From a virus: a stretch of 64,000 bases of DNA. Positions within the stretch are counted from its first letter, which is position 1; each line of letters starts with the position of its first letter. The translations under genes were made by a program, and so were the position numbers. A model generated the notes under the pieces. That model did no database searches. It saw only the letters and a list, made by a program, of their open reading frames with translations, and was not told the DNA's origin. This document shows positions 48,814 to 63,793 of the stretch, piece by piece. The stretch is taken from IMG/VR virus record IMGVR_UViG_3300036940_000232. One strand, 5' to 3'.

Positions 48814-48834
48814 AATTTAATTTTTGGTAAGAGC

Positions 48835-49344: not shown

Positions 49345-49419
49345 TGCCGTAGGCTAGCATAGGTCAATGCCACCAGACTTTGAATCTGGTATTCGTCGGT
49401 TCGAATCCGTCCGGCACTA
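49343..49419 (+). tRNA. tRNA-Gln(TTG)
   Basis: CCAGA-CT-TTG-AA-TCTGG; cloverleaf. Confidence 0.85.
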
Positions 49420-49584
49420 TTCAACTTTTTTAAGAAGCAAATAATTTTACACATGGAGAGCGGTAGCTATGGTCTTTTTATCGAAGTCACTATAATCATG
49501 TAAATGCGTATGACGAATCTAAGGTGAACTCAATTTTCAGAGGCACCGAAATCAAATCAATAAAAGAACTAAAGGTGATATAAA

Positions 49585-50241
49585 ATGGTGAAAGCATTAA
49601 CAGCAATCGTAGCAAAGTGGAACGCATGGAAAGACAAGAATGTTAACGTCGAGGAAATCCTGGAGCTTGACAAAGCAAAGTACAAGCAGAAGATTTCAGA
49701 CGCAAAGAGCAAGGTAATCAAGCTTGTTTCCGAGAAGGATTCCCTGATTACTACACACAAGGAATTCGAAGGCAGAATCTACAAGGCAAAAGACCTTGCT
49801 AAGAAGGCAGCCAAGAAGGGTGACGAAGCTGAAGCCAAGAAGTATCTTGTAAAGGCAGCTAAGCTTGAAGCAACTGCTAAGGATATGGCAGCGACAATCG
49901 CAGACCTTGAGAAGAAGGAAGAAATCCTGAAGCAGAGAGTCGGGGATATGGAAGAAGCACTTGAGATGCTCGATGCAAACAACATCTATATCAAGGCACA
50001 GCTCAGTGCAGCAGAAGTCAGCAAGGACGCTGCAGAAATGCTCACTGGAATGGGCGAGGATGACACTGACCTCAATGAAGTCCGTGACCTGGCCAAGGAG
50101 CGCACAAAGAAGCTCGAAAGCAGCGCTAAGGCAATGACCGATCTTGCAGATGAAGGATTCCTCAAGCCTCGTGTAGTTGTCGATACAGATGTCGACATGG
50201 ATGAGGTTGAGAAAGAACTCAAGAAGCTTATGAAAGAGTGA
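49585..50241 (+). CDS. PspA/IM30-like protein
   Basis: 218 aa long coiled coil with A.KA...GDE.EAK.YL pattern. Confidence 0.6.
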   Translation: MVKALTAIVAKWNAWKDKNVNVEEILELDKAKYKQKISDAKSKVIKLVSEKDSLITTHKEFEGRIYKAKDLAKKAAKKGDEAEAKKYLVKAAKLEATAKDMAATIADLEKKEEILKQRVGDMEEALEMLDANNIYIKAQLSAAEVSKDAAEMLTGMGEDDTDLNEVRDLAKERTKKLESSAKAMTDLADEGFLKPRVVVDTDVDMDEVEKELKKLMKE

Positions 50242-50245
50242 TTCC

Positions 50246-50539
50246 ATGCGCAGCCGCTGGAATTCTATAGAGAATAGAGCGGTAAGATCAGCGCTTAAAA
50301 GAGAGCTGGCAGCTAAGACCAGCTTTCTCAAATGGCGCCCAAATTTAAGACGGATAACCATCGATGATTGGATGGAGTTCTGGCTTAATGCAATGATGAC
50401 TTTGATGATAGGATTCTTATTCCTGTTATTAATAGTCATGATAATAGCAATGAAATGGGTAGGTATAATTGTAGCACTATTTGTGTTCCCAATTTTCCCA
50501 CTATTGCTATCTATATTAAAGGATATGTGGTTTGATTAA
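50246..50539 (+). CDS. Membrane protein
   Basis: Two hydrophobic segments. Confidence 0.55.
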   Translation: MRSRWNSIENRAVRSALKRELAAKTSFLKWRPNLRRITIDDWMEFWLNAMMTLMIGFLFLLLIVMIIAMKWVGIIVALFVFPIFPLLLSILKDMWFD

Positions 50540-50786
50540 CATGAAGTCATATAAGCAAAGATACTATGAAGTACTAGTGAAAGCAATCATTCGAGAAATC
50601 AAAGATGCAGTCACAAGTATTGATTATGTCGAGCTTATACTCAAAGGAGTAATACTTATCTACGCAATTGTTGTAGTAAGTGCGCTGATGAGTATGATAA
50701 TCGGCACAAAAGTTTTTGCGATGCTACCGCTCGCTGTATCGTCTATAATCATAATTGGAATAATTTCAATCATAAAAATTAAATAA
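50532..50786 (+). CDS. Membrane protein
   Basis: Two hydrophobic segments. Confidence 0.55.
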   Translation: MINMKSYKQRYYEVLVKAIIREIKDAVTSIDYVELILKGVILIYAIVVVSALMSMIIGTKVFAMLPLAVSSIIIIGIISIIKIK

Positions 50787-50799
50787 GGAGGAATTTTAC

Positions 50800-52353
50800 T
50801 TGGGTAAATTTAATAAAAAAGCAACATTAGAACAGTCAATGGCTAGGCATCCAGATGCAATAGTCAATCATGAAGGTGCCCTTGCGTATTCGATGTCTGA
50901 AAAGACAAAGCTGATGACCATTGCAGTTACGTGTCTGATTGGTGAATCAAAATTCTATGAGTCACCAGGCGCAGCAGATGCTAACCTCAGCAATGCAGTC
51001 GATGCAGTCCTTCGAACAGATCCAGAATTTGTATTAAAGTTAGCAGCTTTCTGCAGAAATCAGATGTATCTTAGATCACTTCCGATTTACCTGCTTGTGA
51101 AGTATGCAAACTATACCGGCCCACGAGTAGAAGTTCCCAATGCATCAGCATATGTGCCACAGATCGTAAGGCGCGCTGATGAACTGACAGAAGTAGTAGC
51201 AGCTCAGATGAACATGTATCCTAAAAAACGCAGGAAGTCTGGCGGAGTTCAGCTCCCAAGGATACTTAAAAACGGACTTGCTGAAGCTCTCAATAACTTC
51301 TCAGAATATAATCTCGCTAAGTATGACAGACCTGGCGATGTGAAAATCAAGGACGTTCTGTTCCTGACACATCCAAAACCAAAAGATGCAGCTCAGCAGG
51401 AAATCTTCGACAAGATTGCAGCAGGTATGCTTGACACACCTGAAACTTGGGAAGTCCTGTTGTCAGATTGGCAGTCAAAGTTCCCATCCAAGAGGGATGC
51501 ATGGATATATATCATTGATAATGTATTCAACAAAGATGGAAAGGTCAACAACTACATGGCGATGTTGAGGAACCTGAACAATATTCTGGAAGAAGATGTT
51601 CCTCCAAAATATATAGACAAAGTAGCAGAGATGTTACAGGATCCACAAGCGGTAAAGGCTTCAAAGCAATTCCCATACAGGTTCTTATCTGCATACAACA
51701 CAATCAAGTTTGCAAACAGAAGCAGAACAGAAGTAGATAAACTTAAGTCTGCTATTGAAAGAGCGCTCGATATTTCTGTCGAGAATGTTCCACAGTTACC
51801 AGGCAGCACACTTGTACTGATTGATGTATCTAGCTCAATGCAGGGTTGTACAGTCAGTAGGAAATCCGTTGTGAGATGTGCAGACATCGCATGTGTTTTC
51901 GGTGTAATGACTCCAAGAATCGTTGAGAAACTTCCAACAGTAGTTGCATTCGGAACTGATTACAGACAGATTCAGATTGCAGACAGCGACAGAATGCTTG
52001 AGACAGCCAATAAGATAATGAACCTTTCAATTGGTATGGGCACAAATCTTGCAGGCCCGCTTCAAGAAGTAACTAGAAAAGGTATTGTCTATGACAGAAT
52101 AATTATTTTGTCAGATATGCAGTGCCACAGGTACGGAGCGGAAGCGCTTGAGCAGTATCGCAGACAGGTCAATCCTAATGCATACATTTATTCTGTAGAC
52201 CTCTACGGATATGGAAGTGCATTGATGCCAGAAAATTCAAAGAATCTATGCCTAATGGGTGGATACAGTGATAAGATATTCAACTTCATCACTTCATTCG
52301 AAGCAAACCCAGCCACCATGGTTGAAAGGGTGGATGCATGGACGACGAACTGA
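50800..52353 (+). CDS. Ro60/Rsr RNA-binding protein (TROVE + vWA)
   Basis: N.EG..AY, R...YLRS.P, L.KY, TWE, Y.AMLRNL, QFPYRF.SAY and vWA DVSSSM...SDMQ; TTG start with AGGAGG RBS. Confidence 0.95.
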   Translation: MGKFNKKATLEQSMARHPDAIVNHEGALAYSMSEKTKLMTIAVTCLIGESKFYESPGAADANLSNAVDAVLRTDPEFVLKLAAFCRNQMYLRSLPIYLLVKYANYTGPRVEVPNASAYVPQIVRRADELTEVVAAQMNMYPKKRRKSGGVQLPRILKNGLAEALNNFSEYNLAKYDRPGDVKIKDVLFLTHPKPKDAAQQEIFDKIAAGMLDTPETWEVLLSDWQSKFPSKRDAWIYIIDNVFNKDGKVNNYMAMLRNLNNILEEDVPPKYIDKVAEMLQDPQAVKASKQFPYRFLSAYNTIKFANRSRTEVDKLKSAIERALDISVENVPQLPGSTLVLIDVSSSMQGCTVSRKSVVRCADIACVFGVMTPRIVEKLPTVVAFGTDYRQIQIADSDRMLETANKIMNLSIGMGTNLAGPLQEVTRKGIVYDRIIILSDMQCHRYGAEALEQYRRQVNPNAYIYSVDLYGYGSALMPENSKNLCLMGGYSDKIFNFITSFEANPATMVERVDAWTTN

Positions 52354-52610
52354 AAAAAGAATTCGTAAAAGTACTTTGGGCCGAATCAAACTACCATGAA
52401 GATGAGGTTGCACAGGACATTAGATTCCTAGCGACATCCGTCAAGAATAACATGGAAGTATTCGGACTAATGCTGAAATTAAGAAATGTTGGTCGTGGTC
52501 AACCACACACATTTCTTTTGGACGCAGTTGAGGCAACGTTTAAAAAAGATGATGAGCGTGCCAAATCATTGATCAAAAAATGGAAGGAGATGAGAAAGTA
52601 TGGAAATTGA
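52338..52610 (+). CDS. Hypothetical protein
   Basis: Overlapping start. Confidence 0.55.
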   Translation: MDDELKKEFVKVLWAESNYHEDEVAQDIRFLATSVKNNMEVFGLMLKLRNVGRGQPHTFLLDAVEATFKKDDERAKSLIKKWKEMRKYGN

Positions 52611-52959
52611 AGTAGGAGCAGCAATCGGGCCAGATGGTTTCCTAGCAAACAAGATAACAATAAAGTCAGGTGGCTTTAAGAAACTCGAATTACCAGAGGA
52701 ATATCTCAGAGGAGATTGTTTCTGGGTGAAGAAGGGTAAGAACGCAGCATTCATTCTGCGCTCAAGAGTCAACCCACTGACACAAGAGAAAACAGAAACC
52801 AGAAAGACAATCAAGATCCCGCTCGACAGAACGTTCACTGATGCACAGGTTGAGAGACTTGTAGCATTCATGCGTGAAGCCGGTGCTCGCCTTGTAAACA
52901 TCAGGACACTTATGGAATCAGGATTGCTTGAAACCGAACCAATAGTTGTCGAAATCTAA
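52600..52959 (+). CDS. Hypothetical protein, similar to 55756-56169
   Basis: Shared LP..Y...AG.RL..I pattern. Confidence 0.6.
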   Translation: MEIEVGAAIGPDGFLANKITIKSGGFKKLELPEEYLRGDCFWVKKGKNAAFILRSRVNPLTQEKTETRKTIKIPLDRTFTDAQVERLVAFMREAGARLVNIRTLMESGLLETEPIVVEI

Positions 52960-52968
52960 GGTGACAAC

Positions 52969-53229
52969 ATGAAGTTCAAATGGTACTTTTATGGTATCAT
53001 TTGTCTTTCTTATTTAATAATTCTACTTAAGATATTTTTAACAGGTATATTTATATCTGCATTCATAACAGAATGGATAGTCACAATTAGCGCAGTAATT
53101 GCCATATACGCAGGCATTGGAATAGCCATGTGGTTATGTCATCAATTAATGTTTGGTAAACTACATTACTGGATTCGAGATATCATGGAGGCGGACATAT
53201 CATGGAAGAAGAAAGACCAGAAGGATTAG
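52969..53229 (+). CDS. Membrane protein
   Basis: GGTGA RBS; hydrophobic. Confidence 0.55.
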   Translation: MKFKWYFYGIICLSYLIILLKIFLTGIFISAFITEWIVTISAVIAIYAGIGIAMWLCHQLMFGKLHYWIRDIMEADISWKKKDQKD

Positions 53230-53501
53230 TCATCGGTGACTTAGTTATACTAGCCACAATCCTTGTATTAGAAGTAATACAGATTAAGATTACATTCTTC
53301 GGATTCGTATTGTTCGGGCCAATTATAACTTTCTTATTCACATGTATTGTTGGCGGATTCACCTTACTAATCTTGGGATTAATTGCGCTGATTCTATTAG
53401 ATGAATGTTGCAAATGGATTGCTAAGAAGTATTGCGAATATATAAAACCAAAGGCGCGGGCTATCTGGTATTCAGAAGTAGAATGGAGAAAGACAGAGTA
53501 A
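53202..53501 (+). CDS. Membrane protein
   Basis: Hydrophobic. Confidence 0.5.
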   Translation: MEEERPEGLVIGDLVILATILVLEVIQIKITFFGFVLFGPIITFLFTCIVGGFTLLILGLIALILLDECCKWIAKKYCEYIKPKARAIWYSEVEWRKTE

Positions 53502-53539
53502 GTAATTTTTGAACAAAGATATTAAACTTAGGTGATGCA

Positions 53540-53800
53540 ATGATTCATAAAAAGTGTATGGCATGTCAGGAACCAAACGAATATCCTGATTATATAGATG
53601 AAACCTTTCTCACATCGTACACAGCGTCACTGAAAAAAGTTGGCGGCGATGAGTATGCAGAATCTATACTATCGCTGTATTTAATTTATTGTGAGATTGG
53701 TAAACTATGTTTATGCGTTCATTGTGCTAGGAAATTCCTACGCGAAAGAGAAGAATTGATAGGAAAATACGGAGGAGAAATGCGTGAGTTGCGATTGTGA
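53540..53800 (+). CDS. Hypothetical CxxC protein
   Basis: GGTGA RBS. Confidence 0.55.
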   Translation: MIHKKCMACQEPNEYPDYIDETFLTSYTASLKKVGGDEYAESILSLYLIYCEIGKLCLCVHCARKFLREREELIGKYGGEMRELRL

Positions 53801-54173
53801 ATATTGCTTTGATAATGGTGCATTTTACAGGTGCTCACTTACTCGCGAAGTAATAACAAAAGATTGTGATTTAAATGAATGCAAAGAGCTTGAACTTGCT
53901 CGCCTTAATAAAGGTATAAGGTTTAAACCAACAGTAGTTGGGTATAACGAGAACTTACATTATACAGAAAGAAATTCTACAGAAGTAATGATAGGGAGCT
54001 ATACATTTGAAGAGATAGCAAATAGCGCAGGATTTTATGAGAGATATGGTTGGATAATGTGTGTAGATGGAGAAGAAGTAAACCCTGAAGTGCGCCCACA
54101 TAAAAAATTCTATGAGTTACATATTTACGGCAGTTACATTTATATACATGGTTACAGGAGAGGCTACGAATGA
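53784..54173 (+). CDS. Hypothetical Cys-rich protein
   Basis: Operon context. Confidence 0.45.
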   Translation: MSCDCEYCFDNGAFYRCSLTREVITKDCDLNECKELELARLNKGIRFKPTVVGYNENLHYTERNSTEVMIGSYTFEEIANSAGFYERYGWIMCVDGEEVNPEVRPHKKFYELHIYGSYIYIHGYRRGYE

Positions 54174-54297
54174 ACCAATTACAAAAGAGTGTACACCTGG
54201 CGAAGGTCATGTGTATAAATATTCAACGATATCTCGTACAACATCAATGATTATGTTACGAGATTTCCCAAGACAAATATTCGAAGGAGGAAAATAA

Positions 54298-55749
54298 ATG
54301 GACGAATACAACCCAATACTGTATGCCGATGCATACAAAATTAGTCACCCAAAACAGTATCCAGGGAATCTGATGTATTTGAATTCCTATCTTGAAGCCC
54401 GCGTGCCAAATATAAACACCGTGTTCTTCGGTATGCAAATGCTGCTTCAAAGATATATGTCTACACCAATCACCAAAGAAATGGTTGATGAGGCAGAAAA
54501 GTTTTGGACTGACTATGGAATAGATTTCAGCCGCGAAGGTTGGGATATCATTGTGAATGAATACGAAGGCAAGCTACCTCTACATATTCAAGCTGTTCCA
54601 GAAGGAACTCGTGTTCCAACAGGAAATGTATTGGTGCAAGTGACTAACACTGACTCAAGACTCCCATGGCTTGTCAACTTTGTTGAGACAATGCTTATGA
54701 GCAATCTTTGGTATCCAACTACAGTTGCAACAGTCTCATTCGGCATTAAGTGTCTTATTAAAGATGCACTCGACCAAACCGGATGTGAAATAACAGACAT
54801 CATACTTCCATATAAGCTGAATGACTTTGGCTTTAGAGGAGTTTCATCAAAAGATTCTGCAGGAATTGGCGGAGCTGCGCACCTTACTAGCTTCGATAGT
54901 TCAGACAATGCAGAAGGTCTTATCTATGCGATGAAGTACTACAATGCTTCAATCAAGAATCTTTCAATCAACGCAGCCGAGCACTCTACAATTGGTGCAT
55001 GGGGCGAAGATGGAGAGATAGATGCATATCAGAATATGATTGACGCATTCTTTGGAGAAGGTAAGATTGTCGCGTGTGTAAGTGACACATATAATCTGTG
55101 GAATGCCATAGATATGTGGGGCACAGAACTGAAGGATCAGATAATCGAATCTGGCGCATGTCTTGTAGTCCGCCCAGATTCAGGTGACCCAGTAGAAATT
55201 TCACTGCTAACTATCAAATCACTAGCGGTTCATTTCGGGTATACCACAAATGAAAAGGGATACAAGGTTCTACCAGATTGCATTCGCGTAATCTATGGAG
55301 ATGGAATCAACATGACATCAATCGCCGCTATCATTAACAATATTATTAATGATGGATGGGCCGCAGAAAACATCACATTCGGAATGGGCGGCGCACTTCT
55401 GCAGCAGGTAAATCGTGACACCTTCGGTTTCACATACAAAGCATGCGAAGGTATTTATGATACAATAGAAGGAGAAGTTGCGTTCGATATCTATAAAGAT
55501 CCAATAACATCTGGTGGTTCAAAGACATCAAAGCGTGGCAGACTTGCACTCATCATTAATGAGGAAGGTAAGTATGAGACAATTCGTGAAGATGAGATGG
55601 AATCTCCGGAGCAAAATATCCTAGAAGATGTATATCTTGATGGTGAAATTGTAAAGGAAGTTACATTCGATGCGATTCGCGAGACAATAAACAAGGAAGT
55701 AGATGCACAGATAGCCCTGCTAAGACAGGCATTTATCAATAAGGAGTGA
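54298..55749 (+). CDS. nadV: Nicotinamide phosphoribosyltransferase
   Basis: DAYK.SH..QYP, DFG.RG, AAEHS, VSDTY, VRPDSGDP, GDG and FGMGG.LLQ.VNRDT. Confidence 0.95.
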   Translation: MDEYNPILYADAYKISHPKQYPGNLMYLNSYLEARVPNINTVFFGMQMLLQRYMSTPITKEMVDEAEKFWTDYGIDFSREGWDIIVNEYEGKLPLHIQAVPEGTRVPTGNVLVQVTNTDSRLPWLVNFVETMLMSNLWYPTTVATVSFGIKCLIKDALDQTGCEITDIILPYKLNDFGFRGVSSKDSAGIGGAAHLTSFDSSDNAEGLIYAMKYYNASIKNLSINAAEHSTIGAWGEDGEIDAYQNMIDAFFGEGKIVACVSDTYNLWNAIDMWGTELKDQIIESGACLVVRPDSGDPVEISLLTIKSLAVHFGYTTNEKGYKVLPDCIRVIYGDGINMTSIAAIINNIINDGWAAENITFGMGGALLQQVNRDTFGFTYKACEGIYDTIEGEVAFDIYKDPITSGGSKTSKRGRLALIINEEGKYETIREDEMESPEQNILEDVYLDGEIVKEVTFDAIRETINKEVDAQIALLRQAFINKE

Positions 55750-55755
55750 GTAAGT

Positions 55756-56169
55756 ATGGCAAAGGTAGTATTAGTATTCAAACAGGTAATTGACAAGGAA
55801 AACGGATTCAAGAAAATGGTAAAGCTCGAAAGCGTGGAGAACATTGTCTCCAGTGAGGACTTACCAGATGCGTATACACAAGAAGGTATCAACATCGACT
55901 ATGACGAAGCGACGCAAACTCTTGCTATCATGAATGGCACAGAGCTTGTAGCTGACTTTGAAATCGGTGAGATTGTTACGCCTGAGTGCATGGTTGAAAT
56001 CCAGCAGCTTTGTGAGAGAGCAGGTAAGAGGCTCGACATAATTCTTGAAGAACTTCGCGATGCCCAGAAGAATTGGGAAGGTCGTGTAGTTGAGTACGTT
56101 GTCAATGCAGAAGAGGAAGTGACCGGTATAATTGCTCAGATTAAGAAATTTCTTGGGATTGACGCCTAA
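55756..56169 (+). CDS. Hypothetical protein, similar to 52600-52959
   Basis: LP..Y...AG.RL..I. Confidence 0.6.
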   Translation: MAKVVLVFKQVIDKENGFKKMVKLESVENIVSSEDLPDAYTQEGINIDYDEATQTLAIMNGTELVADFEIGEIVTPECMVEIQQLCERAGKRLDIILEELRDAQKNWEGRVVEYVVNAEEEVTGIIAQIKKFLGIDA

Positions 56170-56221
56170 ATTTTGGGCGAATCTTGGTGAAGTAAATAAC
56201 TTCATACCTGGCGAAGAGCCA

Positions 56222-56425
56222 ATGGAGTATAATACACCAAGAACGCTAATGGTTGTAAACCCCGGTAGCATCGGAGTGGACGTTGAATTCATACATGGGA
56301 TGACTTATAGAAAGGCATTATCCAGATATTCAATAGTTCCATATCGAGATTTAATGCCCACCAATATTGGACCAGTACACCCTGATGAAACAATACACGA
56401 GGATGTAACATTCCTTGTGCTTTAA
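56222..56425 (+). CDS. Ubl-like beta-grasp paralog lacking the C-terminal conjugation tail
   Basis: Gap-free alignment to the repeats of 60087-60959 (GSxGxxVE, TYR, M, GxVxPD, VTxLVL), then a stop; exact start uncertain. Confidence 0.75.
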   Translation: MEYNTPRTLMVVNPGSIGVDVEFIHGMTYRKALSRYSIVPYRDLMPTNIGPVHPDETIHEDVTFLVL

Positions 56426-56979
56426 TGGAGGTAAGTATGAAAAGAGGACTATACATTGGAAGGTTTCAGCCCTTTCATCTTGGGCACTTTAATACGCTGA
56501 AAGAAATTGAAGCGATGGAGTTAGTAGATGAACTGATAATTGCAGTGGGTAGCTCGCTCACATCTTATACTCCACGTAATCCTTTTAGCGGCGGCGAACG
56601 TCTCGATATGATAAGGCCGGCGGTTGAAGGTAAATTTGATTTCGGAACATATATTACTGGTATCTCAGACATTGAATACAATCATATATGGGTAGGGCAC
56701 ATGGTTGCTCAGCTCCCGAAATTTGATATGATATTTACTAATAATCCGCTAGTCGGAAAACTTTTCACAGACTTTAATTTTAAAGTAGTGAATACATCTA
56801 TGACTGATAGAGGTAGATATAGTAGCACAGCTATCAGAAATAGTATGTCATCTGGCGACCCAACGTGGAAATACAAAGTCGCTCCGAGTACAGTTAAGTA
56901 TATCGAAGAGTATGATCTTGTGGAAAGAGTTAGAATAGTCAATCAGACAGATGCAGTAATTCCGGTGGCGAATCAATGA
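56425..56979 (+). CDS. nadM: NMN adenylyltransferase (NadM type)
   Basis: IGRFQPFHLGH, NPFSGGER and S.T.IR motifs. Confidence 0.95.
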   Translation: MEVSMKRGLYIGRFQPFHLGHFNTLKEIEAMELVDELIIAVGSSLTSYTPRNPFSGGERLDMIRPAVEGKFDFGTYITGISDIEYNHIWVGHMVAQLPKFDMIFTNNPLVGKLFTDFNFKVVNTSMTDRGRYSSTAIRNSMSSGDPTWKYKVAPSTVKYIEEYDLVERVRIVNQTDAVIPVANQ

Positions 56980-57227
56980 CAGTAGAAGACATTCTTATTA
57001 ATGAAATAGTAAAGAATCCTTTCATAGCAACAGAAGAGTACCTTAAGGAAACAGTTACTATTGATGAGATTGTTAAACCAATTTACAATCTCAAGGATGC
57101 ATAATGCCAGAACTTACAGATATATGTATTTGTGGGCATACATATAAATGTCATATTGGATTGCAAAATGAAGAATGTTTTTTTAATTATAATTGCGAAT
57201 GCAAACAATTCATAGAGAGGAAAGATA

Positions 57228-57305
57228 ATGATCGATAGGTTTACTGGAGAAAATCATCTCGGAAAACTGCTAATGTTAATACGAAAGGAATTGCAAGGAG
57301 ATTAA
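57228..57305 (+). pseudogene. NADAR/YbiA relic (N- and C-termini fused after internal deletion)
   Basis: 25-aa ORF MIDRFTGE-NHLGKLLMLIRKEL; GxNxLGxxLMxxR is the NADAR C-terminal motif. Confidence 0.55.
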
Positions 57306-57307
57306 AT

Positions 57308-58585
57308 ATGGTAACACTAAACGAAGTTTTGGAACGTGTAAATGGATATATAGTTGGCGGTGCAGTAAGAGATAAACTTCTCGGACTTAAGCCAAAAGAT
57401 TATGATGTCTGTACACATATTCTACCTGAAGCAGTATGGCAAATGTTTACCGGACATTGTTATATAGTTGGTGAGAAGTTCGGAACTGTCGGAGTGCATA
57501 CTACAGATGTTGGTGATGTTGAAATCACAACGATGCGTAAAGAGGTAATTCCAGGTCGTAAACCAGTAGTCAAGTGGACAACTAATCTTGAAGAGGATTT
57601 GTCTCGCAGAGATTATACAATCAATGCAATGGCGCTCGATATAGATGGTAATCTGATTGATCCATTTGGCGGCGCTGATGATTTGTTTGCAGGGATACTT
57701 AGAGCGGTCGGTGATGCCAATGAGCGTATAAGGGAAGACCCGCTTAGAATCATGCGTGGAGTAAGGTTTATTGTTAAATATAACCTGCAACCTCAGCGCG
57801 ATTTAACAGAGGCTCTTTGTTACAATACACTTGGCGGACTGAGCAAGGAACGGATCAGAGACGAATTCATGAAAATTCTTGAAGTCAATCCTGTTTACGG
57901 ACTCAAGTGGCTCAAATATATTGGTGTCATAAAAGAGATATCTCCTACGATAGATTCATATTCTCACTATGACCAGAATCCCATATTCCATCCAGAGCTT
58001 GATGTATGGAATCATACACTTCTTGGTATTGAAGATGGATTCAGTAAAGGATTCCCAGTACTTTCACTATTGGCGCACTTGTTGCACGATTGTGGAAAGC
58101 CACAAGCATGGGATGGCTGCCATTATAATGGGCATGAGAATATCGGCGGCGATTATGCAGAAGAATGGATGAGGCATTTCTGTTTCTCAAATGCAGAAAT
58201 AGATGCAGTTAAGTTTGCAGTTAAGAATCATATGAAAGTTTGCAAGTGGAATGAGATGCGAACGTCTAAGAAAATTACAATCGCTCAAAACCCTAATTTG
58301 ACAACGCTCTTGCATGTTCATGAAATGGATTCTGTGGGCCGTCCACTAAAGGAATGTTCAGTAGATAGCATCTTGGAATTCAAAAGTAACATAAAAGAAA
58401 AAGTAAACTGCTACTTGAATGGATTTGAAATCATGGCACAGCTAGAGCTGCCGCCAGGCCCAGGAGTCGGCTATATACTCAATCACTTGATTGAATTGCA
58501 AGTCGAAGGAAAAATCAATGATAGAGATGAAGCTATCAAGTATCTAGCGACAGAGTTCGATTGGAAGGTTACGAATGACATTTAA
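57308..58585 (+). CDS. cca: Class II tRNA nucleotidyltransferase (CCA/polyA polymerase family) with HD domain
   Basis: VGGAVRD.LLG..P.DYD, EDL.RRD.TINAMA, EDPLR.MRG.RF, ERI..E and H...LHD.GK. Confidence 0.9.
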   Translation: MVTLNEVLERVNGYIVGGAVRDKLLGLKPKDYDVCTHILPEAVWQMFTGHCYIVGEKFGTVGVHTTDVGDVEITTMRKEVIPGRKPVVKWTTNLEEDLSRRDYTINAMALDIDGNLIDPFGGADDLFAGILRAVGDANERIREDPLRIMRGVRFIVKYNLQPQRDLTEALCYNTLGGLSKERIRDEFMKILEVNPVYGLKWLKYIGVIKEISPTIDSYSHYDQNPIFHPELDVWNHTLLGIEDGFSKGFPVLSLLAHLLHDCGKPQAWDGCHYNGHENIGGDYAEEWMRHFCFSNAEIDAVKFAVKNHMKVCKWNEMRTSKKITIAQNPNLTTLLHVHEMDSVGRPLKECSVDSILEFKSNIKEKVNCYLNGFEIMAQLELPPGPGVGYILNHLIELQVEGKINDRDEAIKYLATEFDWKVTNDI

Positions 58586-58943
58586 ACTTGTTTATACTGA
58601 AGGCGGCAAATATGTTGCCGACCATAAGGTATTAAGTACAGCACAAACGCAGATTGAATTTTTTAAACGCGGATTTAGTACACAATTCCGGACAGGGCAA
58701 TACATACTCATTGATATGATAATTGCATATGCATTAGTCGACCCAGACTTTGATGTAACTTTACTTGACGTTAGATATATGGGTAAATCATATCCAGTAA
58801 AAGAAGATGGTCGCTGCGAATTCTTATGTGAAGCGAAAGGTTCACCTAAGCATAAACTACTAGATGCACAAATGAAATTCATGCGGGATCAAATTGAATA
58901 TAGAAAGAAATGGAGATGGTCAAGAAGTGATAGAACTGATTAA
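58575..58943 (+). CDS. Hypothetical protein
   Basis: Coupled. Confidence 0.6.
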   Translation: MTFKLVYTEGGKYVADHKVLSTAQTQIEFFKRGFSTQFRTGQYILIDMIIAYALVDPDFDVTLLDVRYMGKSYPVKEDGRCEFLCEAKGSPKHKLLDAQMKFMRDQIEYRKKWRWSRSDRTD

Positions 58944-59023
58944 TTTTGCGGTATATCAATACATATCATTTAACCTTTTTTCTTTTCATATTTTTCAGAT
59001 AGAAAACATGTGGAGGTTAATAT

Positions 59024-59347
59024 ATGGTAAGATTCAACATTGAAATGCTAGCAGAAAGAGACTTAGATGAGCCTGTTAGTTTTATGGGAGTATCATTTAT
59101 ATCAGAAGATGAGCTAGAGGCAACAATTGAGTACTGCGATGAAAATATACGTGCATACTATACGAAATCTTTTCAATCATGCGTATCAGTAGCTCGCACT
59201 GGGATAGGATACATTGAGACAGGGTATGACGAAGAGGATTATGAAACAGATTTCGAGTATTATTATTGCGCAGAATGTGGCGCTGATATAGGAGAGGCAG
59301 ATTATGTAATAGAGCATTGTAGAGACCATGTAAGAGGTGACATATAA
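59024..59347 (+). CDS. Acidic Zn-finger protein
   Basis: GGAGGT RBS; CxxC...H..H. Confidence 0.6.
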   Translation: MVRFNIEMLAERDLDEPVSFMGVSFISEDELEATIEYCDENIRAYYTKSFQSCVSVARTGIGYIETGYDEEDYETDFEYYYCAECGADIGEADYVIEHCRDHVRGDI

Positions 59348-59476
59348 TGTCACTAACAAATTTACTCCGTAAAAAAGTGGAGGATTAATATGATATATAT
59401 AACGATGGTATAAAAGTGTTGGATGAGCAGGAGAATTTCTTATTACGCAAATTCAAAATACAAGAAAAATTGAGGA

Positions 59477-59749
59477 ATGATGGACACAAGGACGCTTCTT
59501 CGCTTCGAGGAAGAAATAAAGAACATATATAATACTGTATCATTTGATACAATATTTGTAGCAAAAGACATAGGTGCAAATGGAAACATCTTAAGAAAGA
59601 TGTGGCAGGAAGGAGTGCTTATTCGAGTCGGCAAGTCCGGCAAATCGATGACATATAAATTGTCAAGTCGTTTGCGTCCACAAGTAGAGGTGATTGTACA
59701 TGGTGAAATTAATTCAGACAGTAACAACAATTCAGAGGAAACGAGCTAA
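59477..59749 (+). CDS. Possible winged-helix protein
   Basis: A.DIG...L.KM..EG.L.RVG pattern. Confidence 0.45.
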   Translation: MMDTRTLLRFEEEIKNIYNTVSFDTIFVAKDIGANGNILRKMWQEGVLIRVGKSGKSMTYKLSSRLRPQVEVIVHGEINSDSNNNSEETS

Positions 59750-60035
59750 GGCCGAAGCGCTAATTGCGTTAATTGAAAGACATATACATGTATATGTTAC
59801 TTCATATGAACTTCAAACTATTGAAGTATATTGGTGTGATCCCGATGATGAGTATAATATTAGTGATATAGAATATTATCACGATGATTACGTTGAAACT
59901 ATTGAAAGTGAAAGGACAGGTTATCATTGCTCTATATGTAATAGAGAAATTGATGACCCAATAGAGCACATGGAAGAGTTTCATAGTGATAAGTTAAATG
60001 AAGAAATCAAAGTGAAACTTCGTCAGTTAAAATAA
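59694..60035 (+). CDS. Acidic Zn-finger protein
   Basis: CxxC...HxxxxH. Confidence 0.55.
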   Translation: MYMVKLIQTVTTIQRKRAKAEALIALIERHIHVYVTSYELQTIEVYWCDPDDEYNISDIEYYHDDYVETIESERTGYHCSICNREIDDPIEHMEEFHSDKLNEEIKVKLRQLK

Positions 60036-60086
60036 TCTGGCAAGTTTATAAGTAAAAAATCGAAAACAATTTGGAGGAATTATTAA

Positions 60087-60959
60087 ATGGTAAGAAAAAT
60101 TTCAGTATCAAAGATGGGTAGCGCAGGAACAGAAGTAGAGATCACAGGGAAGCCAACATACAGGCAGATTGTTGCAGCCGCAGGATTCAGCACATTCAAG
60201 GCAATCATGGCCAACACACTTGGTTATGTAAACCCTGATCACGAAGTTGACGATTCAGTCACCATGCTTGTCCTTGCAGCACCTAAGTTCGATGCAGGAT
60301 ATGGGGCAATCCCATCCATTGAGGTTGAGGATGATGACGGAAACGTTTATACTCTCACTCCATCAGAACCAGTACCTGCAGAGCCAGAGCCAACTGCAAC
60401 AGCAGTAGCTGCAGCTCCAGCAACTAGAACAATCTCTGTATCAAAGATGGGAAGTTCCGGAACAACCGTAACAATCACATCAACAACAACATACAGACAG
60501 GCAGTTGCAATGGCTGGCTTCGAAACATTCAAGGCAATCATGTCCAATACCGGCGGATATGTAAACCCTGATGACGAAGTAGACCCAAGTGTAACAATGC
60601 TTGTACTTGCAGCACCTAAGTTCGACGCCGGCTACGGCGCCATTCCTTCCATCGAAGTCGAAGATGACGATGGGAATGTGTACACACTTACACCACAGGA
60701 GCCAGTTGCAACAGCAACAGCAACAGTAGCTGCACCTGCAGCAACCAGAACAATTTCCGTTTCAAAGATGGGAAGCTCTGGAACAACTGTCACAATTACA
60801 GCGACAACTACTTACAGGCAGGCAGTTGCGCTCGCAGGATTTGAGACATTCAAAGCAATCATGTCAAACACTGGCGGATACGTTAACCCAGACGATGAGG
60901 TTGACCCAAGTGTAACCATGCTTGTTCTTGCTGCACCAAAGTTCGACGCAGGAAACTAA
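60087..60959 (+). CDS. Tri-repeat ubiquitin-like (beta-grasp) precursor
   Basis: Three ~70-aa repeats, each ending LVLAAPKFDAG; two shared linkers; C-terminus DAG-N. Confidence 0.85.
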   Translation: MVRKISVSKMGSAGTEVEITGKPTYRQIVAAAGFSTFKAIMANTLGYVNPDHEVDDSVTMLVLAAPKFDAGYGAIPSIEVEDDDGNVYTLTPSEPVPAEPEPTATAVAAAPATRTISVSKMGSSGTTVTITSTTTYRQAVAMAGFETFKAIMSNTGGYVNPDDEVDPSVTMLVLAAPKFDAGYGAIPSIEVEDDDGNVYTLTPQEPVATATATVAAPAATRTISVSKMGSSGTTVTITATTTYRQAVALAGFETFKAIMSNTGGYVNPDDEVDPSVTMLVLAAPKFDAGN

Positions 60960-60992
60960 GTGAGCCGGAAGCCCCGCTCACTCTTTTATTTA
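60960..60992 (+). terminator. Hairpin plus T-rich tract between the Ubl and E2 genes
   Basis: GTGAGC...GCTCAC stem followed by TCTTTTATTT. Confidence 0.5.
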
Positions 60993-61004
60993 TAGGAGGT
61001 AAAT

Positions 61005-61712
61005 ATGCAAGCGCTTGAAGAACATATACAGACAGTAGAATCTGCAAACTCAGACAATTCTGCTGCAATACGAGAATACAAAATTATAGAATCAAGTCCA
61101 CACTTCCACGATGTAAAGATTGTGGAAGATAAAATAATCTTTACAACAGTGCCTATTCATCTGAATAGTCCAGCAGGAGATTCGCAGACAGTCAATCTTG
61201 GTCGCCTTGAGATTCACATTTATAAGAATGGAAATTACAGGGTATACAGAGATAGAACTTCAGATAGAGATCAAGATCTACCAAGGTCAGGAATTCATCC
61301 GCACGTTGGGTCTGGAAATTCAATATGTCAAGGTAATGCAAATGAGATGTCTCAACTTGCAACGGATAGACAACTTGCAATGCTTGCCACCTTTATCTAT
61401 GAGTTCCTACACCACTATAACATCAGCTCTCCATACTGGAAGCCATACTTCGCAGTGCCATGTATATCATGCGAACACAGAAATACCGCCAGATGCAATT
61501 TCTGCATATGCAATAACTGTGGCAACAGAAGAGGAGACAAGTGTATTGGATGCACTCAGAAGGGAATGACAACTGCAAATACTGCACACAGATATCTTGT
61601 AAGTATCCTTGAGAACAAGCGTTCAGAAGTAGATGAGGATGATTACATTGACTTTGCAGACAGACTTGCAGCATATATTAACAACAGAATGGAGGAGATC
61701 GATAATGTTTAG
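61005..61712 (+). CDS. Prokaryotic E2/UBC-like protein with C-terminal 8-Cys Zn domain
   Basis: HPHV.....ICQGN active-site motif; L..YN..SPY. Confidence 0.75.
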   Translation: MQALEEHIQTVESANSDNSAAIREYKIIESSPHFHDVKIVEDKIIFTTVPIHLNSPAGDSQTVNLGRLEIHIYKNGNYRVYRDRTSDRDQDLPRSGIHPHVGSGNSICQGNANEMSQLATDRQLAMLATFIYEFLHHYNISSPYWKPYFAVPCISCEHRNTARCNFCICNNCGNRRGDKCIGCTQKGMTTANTAHRYLVSILENKRSEVDEDDYIDFADRLAAYINNRMEEIDNV

Positions 61713-62556
61713 AATTTTTGTATTAGCTGAAGCATACGGTAAGATGCTCAGAATGCTTGACTTGATGGATAAAGAAATAGGTGCGCTCATGCTTGGACGC
61801 ATTCACAACGGTGACGCATATGTAGAGGATGTAGTTATCACAAAGCAAGGTGTAACTGGCGCATCCGTCGAGTTTGATGAGGAAGGAATTGACCTTGCAA
61901 CTATGAGAGCAATGGAACAGGGAAAGGTTGTAATTGGATGGTTCCACTCACACGTAAATATGAAGGCATTCTGGTCTGGAACAGATATGAAAACAATCAA
62001 TGACCTGATTGCTCATACTGAAGATTACCTAGTTTCAATCGTATCAAATAAGAAATACGAACATGTAGGGAGAATCGATTACTACGGACAGTCCACATTT
62101 GGAAGAGAGCGCCAGTTTGTAGACAATATCCCAGTAATCCCAGTACTCAATGATCCAGCTGAGTATGATGCCGAAATCAAAGCTGCAATTGCAGAGAATG
62201 TAACAGAAAAGTATATATACTACTCAAAAGGTAAGTATGGAAAGAATAAGGGTAGTAAAACTCATACAGTTATTCATGGCAATCAGTCAGTGTTTGACGA
62301 TAACGGTAAGTACAGAGGATACAGGAAAGATGAGTATGTTGACGACGAAGATGAATTAGGAGTCACATATCAGTTAACTGATGAAGAAATGGATGATATA
62401 CTTGAAGAGCTTAAACAGGAACAGCTAGAAGCTAAAATGGACAAGACAGCTATGCAATTCACAGAAGATGACGCTGAAGTTGCATGGAAAGAGATTGACA
62501 GACTCATGCTCTTAGGAATGTCAGAAGAACAAGCAAAAGCACTAGTACTTGGGTGA
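61705..62556 (+). CDS. JAB/MPN+ (JAMM) metallopeptidase
   Basis: E(IG)...HSH-x7-S-x2-D; start moved to MFRIF at 61705. Confidence 0.9.
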   Translation: MFRIFVLAEAYGKMLRMLDLMDKEIGALMLGRIHNGDAYVEDVVITKQGVTGASVEFDEEGIDLATMRAMEQGKVVIGWFHSHVNMKAFWSGTDMKTINDLIAHTEDYLVSIVSNKKYEHVGRIDYYGQSTFGRERQFVDNIPVIPVLNDPAEYDAEIKAAIAENVTEKYIYYSKGKYGKNKGSKTHTVIHGNQSVFDDNGKYRGYRKDEYVDDEDELGVTYQLTDEEMDDILEELKQEQLEAKMDKTAMQFTEDDAEVAWKEIDRLMLLGMSEEQAKALVLG

Positions 62557-62561
62557 TATAA

Positions 62562-63083
62562 ATGGAAATGGGATTTGACGACTTTGTTACATTCTACAAT
62601 GCATACAAAGGCGACGCAGCACAAACAAATGCAATAAGAGCAATCGACACTATTATTCCGGATGCCATAAATGATATGGTACATTACGTGGCATACAAGC
62701 AGTACGATGTACCGTTGAATCCCGAATGGGCAGATCTTTGTGATGAGTCCATATATAATAGTCAGAGCGCTAGACTTAGAATAGGCCCATTTCTCATGAC
62801 TGTTTGGTCTGAAAGCGCGGCTTATGTCGAGTATTTGCCAGATAATGCAATGATGCAGGAAAGACTTGCACTTGGAGAAGACGATGAGTTCTATAGAGCT
62901 GATAGCGGATTCATGCCGGTATCATGGGACAGCAGGATTGTCATCACATCATTTGGTGAAGTAATACCAAGAGGCGTCGCAGGAGATGAATACATCAATG
63001 CACTTCGCGAAGGTAGACTGAACGATGCAGTGATGCAGATGTTGACAATCATGAGAAAAGAAGTAATCGATTGGAGTAGATAA
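62562..63083 (+). CDS. Hypothetical protein inside the Ubl operon
   Basis: GGTGA RBS; lies between JAB and E1. Confidence 0.7.
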   Translation: MEMGFDDFVTFYNAYKGDAAQTNAIRAIDTIIPDAINDMVHYVAYKQYDVPLNPEWADLCDESIYNSQSARLRIGPFLMTVWSESAAYVEYLPDNAMMQERLALGEDDEFYRADSGFMPVSWDSRIVITSFGEVIPRGVAGDEYINALREGRLNDAVMQMLTIMRKEVIDWSR

Positions 63084-63085
63084 TA

Positions 63086-63793
63086 ATGGCAGATGAAGAG
63101 ATTGAGGTTAATTACCTCAGACAATTAGATTGGTTTAATCCAACTACAATGGAAGCACCTACCGTTCATATTATTGGTTGTGGAGGAATCAATTCCTTTA
63201 CAGCTTTTTATCTTGCGCAGATGGGAATAAAGAAGCTTGTGCTTTGGGACTACGATGAAGTCGAAGAGCATAACATTCCAAACCAGAATTTCCTTTTGGA
63301 ACATATTGGAATGAAGAAGACGACCGCACTTGCAAAACTTATCAAAGATAAAGTAGGCATTGAAGTTAAAGTTAAGGATAGATTCTTCAGTGAAGATTCA
63401 AAAATTACTGACGACAATGCTATTGTGATTGTTGGTACCGATAACATCTCATCCAGAAAAACAGTGTATGAACACTGCAAAGGTAATGAGAAAGTAAAAA
63501 TGTTCATAGATGGTCGTCTAGGCGGACTTGCATTCAATATATTTACAATCAATCCGCACGAAGAATCTGACCAAGAACTCTACGAAGAAAACTTGTTCGA
63601 AGAAGGTGAATCAGACGGTCTTCCATGCACAGCGAAATCAATCATATTCGTTGGTGCTCACATTGGTGCACTTATTTGTCAGCAAGTATTTGCTATAATG
63701 ACTGAGCGCCCAGTTACGAAGAACGCATGTTATGATCACCTGAACAATCTTATTGATATAGATGGTAAGGCGATTATGTATGGTACAGCATAA
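63086..63793 (+). CDS. ThiF/E1-like adenylyltransferase
   Basis: RQ, IIGCGG, DYD.V..HN..NQ, K, GTDN..SR, DGR.G and candidate catalytic PCT. Confidence 0.9.
   Translation: MADEEIEVNYLRQLDWFNPTTMEAPTVHIIGCGGINSFTAFYLAQMGIKKLVLWDYDEVEEHNIPNQNFLLEHIGMKKTTALAKLIKDKVGIEVKVKDRFFSEDSKITDDNAIVIVGTDNISSRKTVYEHCKGNEKVKMFIDGRLGGLAFNIFTINPHEESDQELYEENLFEEGESDGLPCTAKSIIFVGAHIGALICQQVFAIMTERPVTKNACYDHLNNLIDIDGKAIMYGTA

What the first reader, a model, noticed from the sequence alone, without database searches (positions are those of the whole stretch)
56222..56425. Fourth, tail-less Ubl paralog placed between the NAD salvage genes
RTLMVVNPGSIGVDVEFIHGMTYRKALSRYSIVPYRDLMPTNIGPVHPDETIHEDVTFLVL aligns without gaps to the Ubl repeat (GSxGxxVE, TYR, GxVxPD, VTxLVL). 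It stops exactly before AAPKFDAG, and its stop overlaps the nadM start. Inference: a non-conjugatable Ubl acting as decoy, adaptor or regulator, possibly linking Ubl tagging to NAD counter-defence.
Basis: partly seen in the sequence, partly recalled or inferred. Interest (0 to 1): 0.65.

Follow-up and report, generated by a model that had tools for sequence, protein, structure and literature searches.

The report
Captured tail-less ubiquitin-like repeat unit
A small gene between a virus's two NAD-rebuilding genes is a genuine but very diverged copy of one unit of the virus's three-unit ubiquitin-like tag gene; it lacks the attachment tail because exactly one repeat length was pasted in by a recombination accident, and no regulatory role is shown.

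Summary
ORF 56222-56425 (67 aa) aligns without gaps to all three repeats of the poly-Ubl gene at 60087-60959 (33-34% identity, E 4e-10). It is predicted to be a beta-grasp domain (pLDDT 91) and ends exactly where the repeats' conjugation tail begins.

The truncation is neither a nonsense mutation nor a shown adaptation. The gene lies in a 262-nt insert (56158-56419) in the last codons of the upstream gene ("geneX"), flanked by 9-nt direct repeats. In frame, the insert reads decayed tail, linker, domain. That is one full repeat period in permuted order. The stop codon is geneX's old one.

Three related contigs have the empty site, with geneX running almost straight into nadM. All candidate start codons lack the Shine-Dalgarno site that neighbouring genes have. 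The domain has lost family-invariant residues and sits on a very long tree branch.

Ubl4 and NadM do not co-vary, so the position between the NAD genes looks accidental.

The protein cannot be conjugated. Whether it is a co-opted non-covalent regulator (about 0.3) or a dispensable passenger (about 0.55) is open. All sampled copies are identical, and no RNA data were found.

The parts
56222..56425 (+). Ubl4 ORF (67 aa from ATG; TAA 56423-56425): tail-less beta-grasp paralog of the poly-Ubl repeats
56158..56419 (+). 262-nt inserted unit. In the Ubl4 frame it reads decayed tail, linker, domain, which is one complete, circularly permuted poly-Ubl repeat period
   Evidence: Empty sites are in L004, L018 and a contig of run X20 that joins 56157 to 56437
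56149..56157 (+). left 9-nt direct repeat (end of ancestral geneX, codons F-L-G)
56411..56419 (+). right 9-nt direct repeat (7/9 identical to the left one; Ubl4 codons F-L-V). The following CTT TAA is orthologous to geneX's original last codon and stop
   Evidence: The last 16 nt of Ubl4 match the last 16 nt of L004 geneX at 15/16
56162..56182 (+). 'ghost' tail (T-P-K-F-W-A-N) in the Ubl4 frame, upstream of the ATG. It is a decayed counterpart of the repeats' A-A-P-K-F-D-A-G, with the terminal Gly lost
56159..56221 (+). in-frame, stop-free upstream extension from TTG 56159, the start used by public gene calls (88 aa). It overlaps the geneX stop by 11 nt, so translational coupling is possible
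55756..56169 (+). geneX: 137-aa protein of unknown function. It is a conserved member of the NAD module in related viruses. Its last three codons and stop come from the insert
54298..55749 (+). NadV (NAMPT)
56437..56979 (+). NadM-like NMN adenylyltransferase (likely start 56437, SD 56427-56431)
60087..60959 (+). tri-Ubl precursor: three repeats, each with a conjugation tail. It belongs to the family that Ubl4 derives from
61633..62556 (+). JAB peptidase of the Ubl operon (true start probably downstream of 61633)
63086..63793 (+). ThiF-type E1 of the Ubl operon

Best explanation
Ubl4 is a captured single repeat unit of a viral poly-Ubl gene. A recombination or copy-choice event used the same short homology twice. 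That homology lies between the codons for the last beta-strand of the Ubl domain (L-V-L) and the last codons of geneX (F-L-G-L-stop). The event copied exactly one repeat period into the 3' end of geneX. Because the period was taken from strand-end to strand-end, the unit is circularly permuted. Its tail and linker come first and the globular domain comes last. The domain therefore ends flush at the junction and uses geneX's old stop codon. An ATG in the former linker (or a TTG overlapping the geneX stop) can give a free 67-88 aa beta-grasp protein. Without a C-terminal Gly tail, that protein cannot be activated by the E1 or cut by the JAB peptidase. Shown: the homology, the fold prediction, the insert boundaries, the empty sites and the missing ribosome-binding site. 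Inferred: the recombination mechanism, and that the ORF is today most likely a weakly translated, dispensable passenger rather than a selected regulator. My odds are 0.8 for the capture origin. Given that origin, they are about 0.55 for passenger, 0.3 for a co-opted non-covalent Ubl-fold regulator, and under 0.05 for an NAD-specific role.
For: Homology and fold:
- BLASTP E 4e-10, ungapped.
- Exhaustive profile search of 1.84 billion representatives: E 1e-28 for this protein.
- AF2 with a 24-row family alignment: pLDDT 91.4, pTM 0.76, with beta-beta-alpha-beta-beta order.
- All structural neighbours are beta-grasp proteins: SUMO-2, TtuB, the bacterial Ubl of 8tyx, the multi-ubiquitin protein 8u38, and 2Fe-2S ferredoxins with Z up to 7.5.

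Insert and empty sites:
- Sister phage L004 has geneX (50% aa identity) followed after 25 nt by nadM (88% identity), with no Ubl unit in 10 kb.
- The last 16 nt of Ubl4 equal the last 16 nt of L004 geneX at 15 positions. The shared nadM SD and start follow.
- L018 has the same geneX ending.
- A contig of run X20 joins window 56157 directly to 56437 through 30 unrelated letters. Its geneX also continues C-T-T after the junction.
- At sites where X20 differs from the window, L004 agrees with the window. This holds at 17 of 18 sites in nadM and 7 of 9 in geneX. Window-X20 identity in geneX (about 79%) exceeds window-L004 (61%).
- The two empty-site lineages therefore do not form a clade that excludes the window in either flank. 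One insertion is more parsimonious than two identical deletions.

Permuted unit:
- Directly after the left junction the Ubl4 frame reads L-T-P-K-F-W-A-N-L-G, where the repeats read L-A-A-P-K-F-D-A-G-Y-G.
- With the position fixed by the junction, a P-K-F match within one residue of register has a chance below 1e-3 (my estimate).

Signs of weak or no selection as a gene:
- All four candidate starts pair poorly with the anti-SD (dG +0.2 to -3.0). Most neighbouring genes score between -5.6 and -11.3.
- Residues invariant in all 23 other family repeats are lost: Lys in the first loop to Asn, and Ala-Gly after the helix to Tyr-Ser.
- The terminal branch is 2.58 changes per column, against a median of 0.16.
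- The unit is absent from the syntenic site in three relatives. No stand-alone tail-less unit turned up in five other poly-Ubl virus lineages.
Against: - The ORF is intact and ungapped even though it has lost conjugation-specific invariants. The hydrophobic core pattern is fully kept.
- In a drift simulation from repeat 2 to the observed nucleotide divergence, only 6.6% of sequences stayed open and 4.8% kept at least 33% aa identity.
- That fits a period of evolution as a folded but non-conjugated protein. It could, however, have happened in an unsampled donor before capture.
- The unit is fixed and 100% identical in at least 13 contigs. These come from oil-field, subsurface and wastewater samples and cover two haplotypes that differ just downstream.
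- Translation by coupling to geneX (TTG 56159 overlaps its stop) needs no SD. Two other weak-SD genes in the region sit at such junctions.
- The donor has not been found. The resident repeats are only about 50% identical in DNA.
- The direction of the event rests on parsimony over mosaic flanks.
Confidence: 0.55

Rival explanations
1. Co-opted regulator. Whatever its origin, Ubl4 is now a selected, non-conjugatable free Ubl. It binds non-covalently to the virus's own E1, JAB or E2-like proteins, or to Ubl-recognising targets. It tunes, caps or competes with tagging by the tri-Ubl product.
For: - The fold is predicted with high confidence and the core is kept.
- What is lost are exactly the features needed only for conjugation (tail, loop Lys, Ala-Gly). 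The G-x-V-x-P-D and V-T-x-L-V-L surfaces are kept.
- The ORF is open and ungapped at a divergence where simulated drift leaves 6.6% of sequences open.
- The unit is fixed in all sampled genomes of the lineage.
- The cognate E1, JAB and poly-Ubl lie 4-7 kb downstream in the same transcription direction.
- Tail-less beta-grasp domains are normal parts of ISG15-like and bacterial Ubl2/Ubl3 proteins (10.1101/2024.11.21.623966).
Against: - There is no ribosome-binding site.
- The sister phage L004 has the same Ubl operon but lacks Ubl4 in the 10 kb sampled, so the operon appears to work without it.
- Taillessness is explained mechanically by the junction.
- There is no sequence variation among copies to show purifying selection.
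- The family invariants lost in the domain (3 of 13) are lost at about the same rate as in the untranslated ghost tail (1 of 3).
Confidence: 0.3
2. Ancestral gene, lost in relatives. The geneX-Ubl4-nadM arrangement is old. L004, L018 and the X20 relative each lost Ubl4 by deletion between the 9-nt direct repeats.
For: - Deletion between short direct repeats is common, and the repeats are there.
- This region is a hotspot of rearrangement. Examples are the nadM internal deletion, Nudix/NADAR/RtcB gain and loss, and a geneX internal deletion in L018.
- The long branch of Ubl4 suggests age.
Against: - It needs two or more independent deletions with the same end point.
- Even then, the permuted tail-linker-domain order bounded by geneX-like repeats still implies an earlier insertion of one repeat period. 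This rival changes only the timing.
Confidence: 0.12
3. NAD-module adaptor. Ubl4 physically links Ubl tagging to NadV/NadM, for example by binding NadM, as its position suggests.
For: - It sits between geneX and nadM, with its stop immediately before the nadM SD.
- In distant relatives the NAD module lies next to or near the poly-Ubl operon. In L020 the order is NadV-NadM-290 aa-polyUbl.
- A gene just upstream of NadV in L004 has a weak Ubl-family match (hhalign 79%, E 1.6e-5).
Against: - Ubl4 and an intact NadM do not co-vary. L004 has NadM without Ubl4. Ten contigs have Ubl4 with a nadM cut to 68-72 aa.
- The position is explained by microhomology with the end of geneX.
- The window's counterpart of the L004 gene gives no significant Ubl match.
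Confidence: 0.04
4. Nonsense-truncated pseudogene. A full Ubl unit with tail was duplicated here and a point mutation created a premature stop.
For: The ORF stops exactly at the domain-tail boundary.
Against: - The sequence after the stop is the nadM SD and start, not tail codons.
- The stop and the preceding codon are orthologous to the geneX terminus of L004.
- The tail remnant lies upstream of the domain.
Confidence: 0.01

Closest known systems
The conjugatable repeats of this virus's own poly-Ubl gene and its small family (P0002, P0003, P0005-P0008, P0010, P0011; 2-5 repeats each)
   Same: Same sequence family (profile E 1e-28) and same predicted beta-grasp fold. It shares the R, G, T-Y-R, G-x-V and V-T-x-L-V-L positions.
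   Different: It is a stand-alone single unit with no P-K-[FI]-x-[AG]-G tail. It has lost the loop Lys and the Ala-Gly after the helix. It lies 4 kb from the operon and sits on a very long branch.
Tail-less N-terminal beta-grasp domains of ISG15, BilA and bacterial Ubl2/Ubl3 proteins of Bil and Bub operons (Gong et al., bioRxiv 10.1101/2024.11.21.623966; PDB 8u38, 9d5b, 8tyx)
   Same: These are beta-grasp domains that belong to a Ubl-E1-JAB system but cannot themselves be conjugated. They appear among the structural matches.
   Different: Those domains are covalently joined to a last domain that does carry the conjugatable Gly. Some mediate dimer or filament formation. Ubl4 is a separate ORF with no conjugatable partner domain, and there is no detectable sequence relation (Foldseek identity 18-21%).
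Archaeal SAMPs and ThiS/MoaD/TtuB sulfur carriers
   Same: Small prokaryotic beta-grasp proteins that work with ThiF-type E1 and JAB/JAMM enzymes. The tri-Ubl has a weak SAMP2 Pfam match (E 0.002, below cut-off). TtuB and a MoaD-like protein are among the fold matches.
   Different: All of these depend on a C-terminal Gly-Gly tail, which Ubl4 lacks. Ubl4 itself has no Pfam match.
YukD of Bacillus subtilis (PDB 2bps), a ubiquitin-fold protein without a conjugation tail
   Same: A stand-alone prokaryotic ubiquitin-fold protein with no C-terminal Gly tail. It appears in the fold list at Z 5.7.
   Different: Unrelated in sequence and in genomic context: a secretion locus (my own knowledge) rather than a viral Ubl-E1-JAB system.
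Giant-virus polyubiquitin whose last unit lacks Gly-Gly (scan note e1-5459431; not checked here)
   Same: A viral ubiquitin-type unit that stops just before the attachment residues.
   Different: That case is true eukaryote-type ubiquitin, with the unit being the last one inside the polyprotein, and it is reported as conserved across many viruses. Here the unit is a separate captured copy seen in one viral lineage.

Membership tests
Viral poly-Ubl repeat family (unnamed; this window's tri-Ubl and 9 other representatives) | Significant sequence similarity to the repeat unit | tested here: met
   BLASTP E 4e-10; profile E 1.1e-28 in the exhaustive search
Viral poly-Ubl repeat family (unnamed; this window's tri-Ubl and 9 other representatives) | C-terminal tail P-K-[FI]-x-[AG]-G on every unit | tested here: not met
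   Present in all 23 other units and absent from Ubl4. A decayed copy lies upstream of the ATG at 56162-56182.
Viral poly-Ubl repeat family (unnamed; this window's tri-Ubl and 9 other representatives) | Units arranged head to tail in one polyprotein next to E2-like, JAB and E1 genes | tested here: not met
   Single unit, 3.7 kb upstream of the operon, between geneX and nadM
Viral poly-Ubl repeat family (unnamed; this window's tri-Ubl and 9 other representatives) | Near-invariant Lys in the first loop and Ala-Gly after the helix | tested here: not met
   Asn and Tyr-Ser at these columns
Conjugatable ubiquitin-like modifiers (ubiquitin, SAMP, BilA, ThiS/MoaD type) | Beta-grasp fold | tested here: met
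   AF2 pLDDT 91.4. The matches are all beta-grasp proteins, with TM 0.56-0.68 and Z up to 7.5. This is a prediction only.
Conjugatable ubiquitin-like modifiers (ubiquitin, SAMP, BilA, ThiS/MoaD type) | Flexible C-terminal tail ending in Gly, free or exposable by a peptidase | tested here: not met
   The ORF ends at the last strand. In-frame read-through meets a second stop two codons later.
Conjugatable ubiquitin-like modifiers (ubiquitin, SAMP, BilA, ThiS/MoaD type) | Adenylation by a cognate E1 | not testable with these tools
   An E1 is encoded at 63086-63793. Biochemistry is needed.
Non-conjugatable ubiquitin-fold adaptor or regulator proteins (UBL/UBX-type, YukD-type) | Ubiquitin fold without a conjugation tail, made as a stable protein | tested here: inconclusive
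   Fold and taillessness are met. Expression is unknown: there is no SD at any start and no RNA run was listed.
Non-conjugatable ubiquitin-fold adaptor or regulator proteins (UBL/UBX-type, YukD-type) | A defined non-covalent binding partner | not testable with these tools
   Needs pull-down or calorimetry with the E1, JAB, the 235-aa and 173-aa operon proteins, NadM and geneX.
Pseudogene by premature stop | Homologous coding sequence continues after the stop | tested here: not met
   The sequence after the stop is the nadM SD and start, shared with L004.

The most novel reading that the evidence does not exclude
A repeat unit torn out of a viral polyubiquitin-like gene by a microhomology accident has been co-opted as a free, non-attachable Ubl. 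It modulates the virus's own E1/JAB tagging cascade. That would be a caught-in-the-act example of how tail-less Ubl regulators arise from conjugatable ones.
Probability: 0.3. Interest if true: 0.6.

Novelty: new variant of a known kind. Interest (0 to 1): 0.33.

Why it matters
The virus's poly-Ubl/E1/JAB operon is the notable feature of this region. Ubl4 is a side product of it. Its value is mainly evolutionary, because both junctions, the empty sites and the decayed tail are all visible. Together they show how one period of a tandem-repeat gene can be copied elsewhere and become a new small ORF with a borrowed stop codon. It is also a caution: an exact truncation before the functional motif can be a recombination register rather than design. 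If the protein is made and binds the Ubl machinery, it would be a simple natural tool for probing an untested viral tagging system. Nothing here shows that, and the proposed tie to NAD counter-defence is most likely positional coincidence.

Tried and rejected
- Phage GenBank records: megablast of 54000-64000 gave no match. tblastn of Ubl4 gave only chance hits with E of 0.6 or more.
- IMG/VR scans with Ubl4, the tri-Ubl and geneX: no relatives.
- Nearest held virus record G001: no match to Ubl4 or to 44001-64000.
- Word-index protein search: found only the protein itself.
- Pfam and PHROGs: no hits for Ubl4.
- AF2 on the single sequence: uninformative, pLDDT 52.
- Complex prediction of the E1 (4-row alignment) with Ubl4 (24-row alignment): no verdict, score 0.22 against a mark of 0.32. 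This counts neither for nor against binding.
- Sequencing-run search: no RNA holder listed, so expression is untested.
- Promoter and terminator scan of 53500-60200: nothing above the shuffled expectation, and no site next to Ubl4.
- A programmed frameshift or read-through fusing Ubl4 to NadM: considered by inspection and rejected. There is no slippery heptamer in the zero frame, and a second in-frame stop follows two codons after the first.
The scan with the closer alignment gave three P0003-type loci with no tail-less unit.
- The window's 129-aa protein upstream of NadV (53784-54173) as a fifth Ubl-like domain: hhalign probability 5%, not significant. There were no Pfam or Atlas leads for it or its L004 counterpart.
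- Shuffle test of the ghost tail as a free local alignment: only marginal, p 0.02-0.06. Its weight comes from its fixed position at the junction.
- Literature searches for phage or archaeal-virus tail-less Ubl paralogs: nothing relevant.

Full report
**What is there.**
The window is part of a tailed virus. Terminase, tape-measure and baseplate genes lie on the minus strand. A long plus-strand block runs from about 26 kb to the end.

In that block, ORF 56222-56425 encodes 67 residues. It lies after NadV (54298-55749, NAMPT, Pfam E 9e-48) and a 137-aa gene of unknown function that I call geneX (55756-56169). It lies before a NadM-like nucleotidyltransferase (Pfam E 4e-15).

Further downstream are:
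- a CCA-adding enzyme;
- the tri-Ubl gene (60087-60959);
- a Cys-rich 235-aa protein;
- a JAB peptidase;
- a 173-aa protein;
- a ThiF-type E1.

**Check of the observation.**
BLASTP of the 67-aa protein against the tri-Ubl protein gives one ungapped hit per repeat. The best is E 4e-10, with 20-21 of 61 residues identical.

The ORF ends exactly where the repeats continue into their 8-residue tail. A six-frame profile scan of the window finds these four units and nothing else.

One detail needs correcting. The stop overlaps only the first in-frame ATG of the nadM frame, which has no ribosome-binding site. The likely nadM start is 56437, behind GGAGG, as in the sister phage.

**Family and fold.**
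I made a profile of the four units and scored it against 1.84 billion representative proteins. It found only ten true relatives.

Apart from this ORF, all of them are polyproteins of two to five units, or fragments of such polyproteins (P0004, P0007). Every complete unit ends in P-K-[FI]-x-[AG]-G, followed by a linker or by one to three residues. Ubl4 is the only stand-alone tail-less member.

With the 24-row family alignment, AlphaFold2 predicts a beta-grasp domain with pLDDT 91.4 and pTM 0.76. The single-sequence model was poor.

Foldseek and VIA-align return only beta-grasp proteins. These include SUMO, ISG15, TtuB, the bacterial Ubl of 8tyx, the multi-ubiquitin proteins 8u38 and 9d5b, and 2Fe-2S ferredoxins. 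TM-scores are 0.56-0.68 and Z reaches 7.5. That supports the fold but no specific relative.

Ubl4 keeps the hydrophobic core and most family-invariant positions. It has lost three of them: the Lys of the first loop, and the Ala-Gly after the helix.

**Why it has no tail.**
The sister contig L004 carries NadV, geneX (50% identical), NadM (88%) and the closest tri-Ubl (P0002). It has only 25 nt between geneX and nadM, and no Ubl unit anywhere in its 10 kb.

Three junction facts follow:
- The last 16 nt of Ubl4, including its stop, match the last 16 nt of L004 geneX at 15 positions. The shared nadM SD and start follow.
- The window's own geneX matches L004 geneX up to codons F-L-G and then departs.
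- L018 has the same geneX ending as L004.

Laying public contigs on the region gave independent confirmation. One contig of run X20 joins 56157 directly to 56437 through 30 unrelated letters. Its geneX again continues with a Leu codon after the junction.

The difference between filled and empty sites is therefore a 262-nt segment, 56158-56419. It is bounded by 9-nt direct repeats at 56149-56157 and 56411-56419.

Read in the Ubl4 frame, the segment begins with L-T-P-K-F-W-A-N-L-G. That is a decayed version of the repeats' L-A-A-P-K-F-D-A-G-Y-G. It continues with a short linker that contains the ATG, and it ends with the globular domain.

That order is one complete repeat period taken from last-strand to last-strand, so it is circularly permuted. 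The domain stops flush at the junction and uses geneX's original last codon and stop. In turn, geneX reads three new codons and a stop out of the insert in another frame.

The simplest mechanism is recombination or template switching that used the same microhomology twice. The homology is between the codons for the Ubl last strand and the similar end of geneX. This step is inferred.

**Direction and age.**
I compared the sites where the X20 contig differs from the window. L004 agrees with the window at 17 of 18 such sites in nadM and at 7 of 9 in geneX. In geneX, X20 is closer to the window (about 79% identity) than L004 is (61%).

In neither flank do the empty-site lineages form a group that excludes the window. 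One insertion is therefore more parsimonious than repeated identical deletions. The flanks are mosaic, however, so this is not proof.

The resident repeats are not a recent donor:
- DNA identity to them is 49-52%, with dS saturated.
- In a family tree, Ubl4 joins the clade of the window, P0002, P0003, P0006, P0007 and P0008 units. It does so on a terminal branch of 2.58 changes per column, against a median of 0.16.

Either the donor was an unsampled, distant poly-Ubl gene, or the geneX-Ubl4 block is older than the nadM flank suggests.

**Is it a working gene?**

*Evidence against:*
- Most confident genes in 49-64 kb have a Shine-Dalgarno match of -5.6 to -11.3 kcal/mol to the anti-SD. The four possible Ubl4 starts score +0.2 to -3.0.
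- The unit is absent from three related contigs.
- No comparable stand-alone unit exists in five other poly-Ubl virus lineages that I fetched.
- Family invariants are lost in the domain at about the same rate as in the untranslated ghost tail.

*Evidence for:*
- The ORF is open and ungapped, and it keeps the core.
- In a simple drift simulation to the observed divergence, only 6.6% of sequences stay open.
- The unit is fixed and identical in at least 13 contigs from several habitats and years, across two haplotypes that differ immediately downstream.
- TTG 56159 overlaps the geneX stop, which would allow translational coupling without an SD.

Because every sampled copy is identical, no test of purifying selection is possible. 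No RNA run was listed. I put a dispensable passenger at about 0.55 and a co-opted non-covalent regulator at about 0.3.

**The NAD link.**
The position is explained by the microhomology at the end of geneX, and Ubl4 does not track NadM. L004 has an intact NAD module without Ubl4. Ten contigs keep an identical Ubl4 beside a nadM reduced to 68-72 residues by an internal deletion, followed by Nudix and NADAR genes.

The NAD module and the poly-Ubl operon are neighbours or near-neighbours in distant relatives too. That is conserved gene order in this viral group, not evidence that Ubl4 connects them. NadV plus an NMN adenylyltransferase is the known phage NARP2 route (10.1101/2024.02.11.579819).

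**Comparison with what is known.**
Tail-less beta-grasp domains are ordinary components of ISG15-like, BilA and bacterial Ubl2/Ubl3 proteins, where only the last domain is conjugatable (10.1101/2024.11.21.623966). Operons with a tandem-repeat Ubl (polyUbl), an inactive E2-like protein and a JAB-E1 fusion protein were predicted in bacteria in 2006 (PMC1779556).

Three things differ here. The unit is a separate ORF. It belongs to a small viral family in which every unit normally carries its own tail. And its origin is readable from the junctions.

I therefore class it as a new variant of a known kind. It fails the defining tail, array and invariant-residue tests of its own family, so it is a derivative of that family and not a working member.

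**Earlier notes of this scan.**
Earlier notes on the operon, the poly-Ubl and the NAD pair agree with what I saw. I re-checked only the Pfam assignments and the repeat structure. I did not test the suggested archaeal host.

Noticed in passing
window 56437-56979; L002, L008, L010-L014, L016, L017: Two haplotypes of the same virus population exist. The window type has an intact 180-aa NadM and no Nudix or NADAR. The commoner type has nadM cut to 68-72 aa by an internal deletion, followed by Nudix, a 115-aa gene and NADAR. Sister L004 has NadM plus Nudix plus an intein-containing RtcB. The NAD module is a recombination hotspot.
   Followed up: partly
window 60420-60632 vs 60741-60953: Repeats 2 and 3 of the tri-Ubl are 97% identical in protein (dN 0.02), but their synonymous sites are saturated (dS about 1.7). 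Either the duplication is very old and under extreme purifying selection, or there is selection against DNA identity between tandem repeats.
   Followed up: partly
window 55756-56169; L004 1965-2360; L019 2559-2939: geneX (126-137 aa, no Pfam or PHROG match) is a conserved member of the NadV/NadM module. It is 50% identical in L004 and 36% identical in the distant L019 (E 4e-20). It is an unknown partner of the viral NAD-rebuilding genes.
   Followed up: partly
L004 115-489 (gene just upstream of NadV); window 53784-54173: The L004 gene has a Cys-rich N-terminal part shared with the window's 129-aa protein (E 3e-6). Its C-terminal part matches the Ubl family profile without a tail (hmmsearch E 1.7e-5; hhalign 79%). 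The window's counterpart shows only an AGF-type motif and no significant match.
   Followed up: partly
P0005 (L019 10001-11617), residues about 78-139 and 247-282: The five-repeat poly-Ubl has two degenerate, tail-less Ubl-like segments between true repeats. The profile hits are very weak (E 1-9).
   Followed up: no
window 60300-60360 and 60633-60690; P0002, P0003, P0006, P0007: After each non-terminal tail comes a conserved short motif: hydrophobic residues, an acidic run, G-N/x-x-Y, then T/V-P. It is followed by a low-complexity Ala/Pro/Thr or acidic spacer. It could be the primed-side recognition element for the JAB peptidase.
   Followed up: no
L018 1221-1542: A related contig has geneX broken by an internal deletion and frameshift. 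It lacks NadM and Nudix altogether and runs from geneX into a NADAR fragment and the CCA enzyme.
   Followed up: no
L020 7243-13190: In a distant relative, the NAD module (NAD kinase-like, NadV, NadM) lies directly next to the poly-Ubl operon, separated by one 290-aa gene of unknown function. An Apyc1-like anti-Pycsar gene lies nearby.
   Followed up: no
window 61633-61712: The longest JAB ORF overlaps the preceding gene by 80 nt and its ATG has no SD. The relatives' JAB proteins are 241-266 aa, so the true start is probably further downstream.
   Followed up: no
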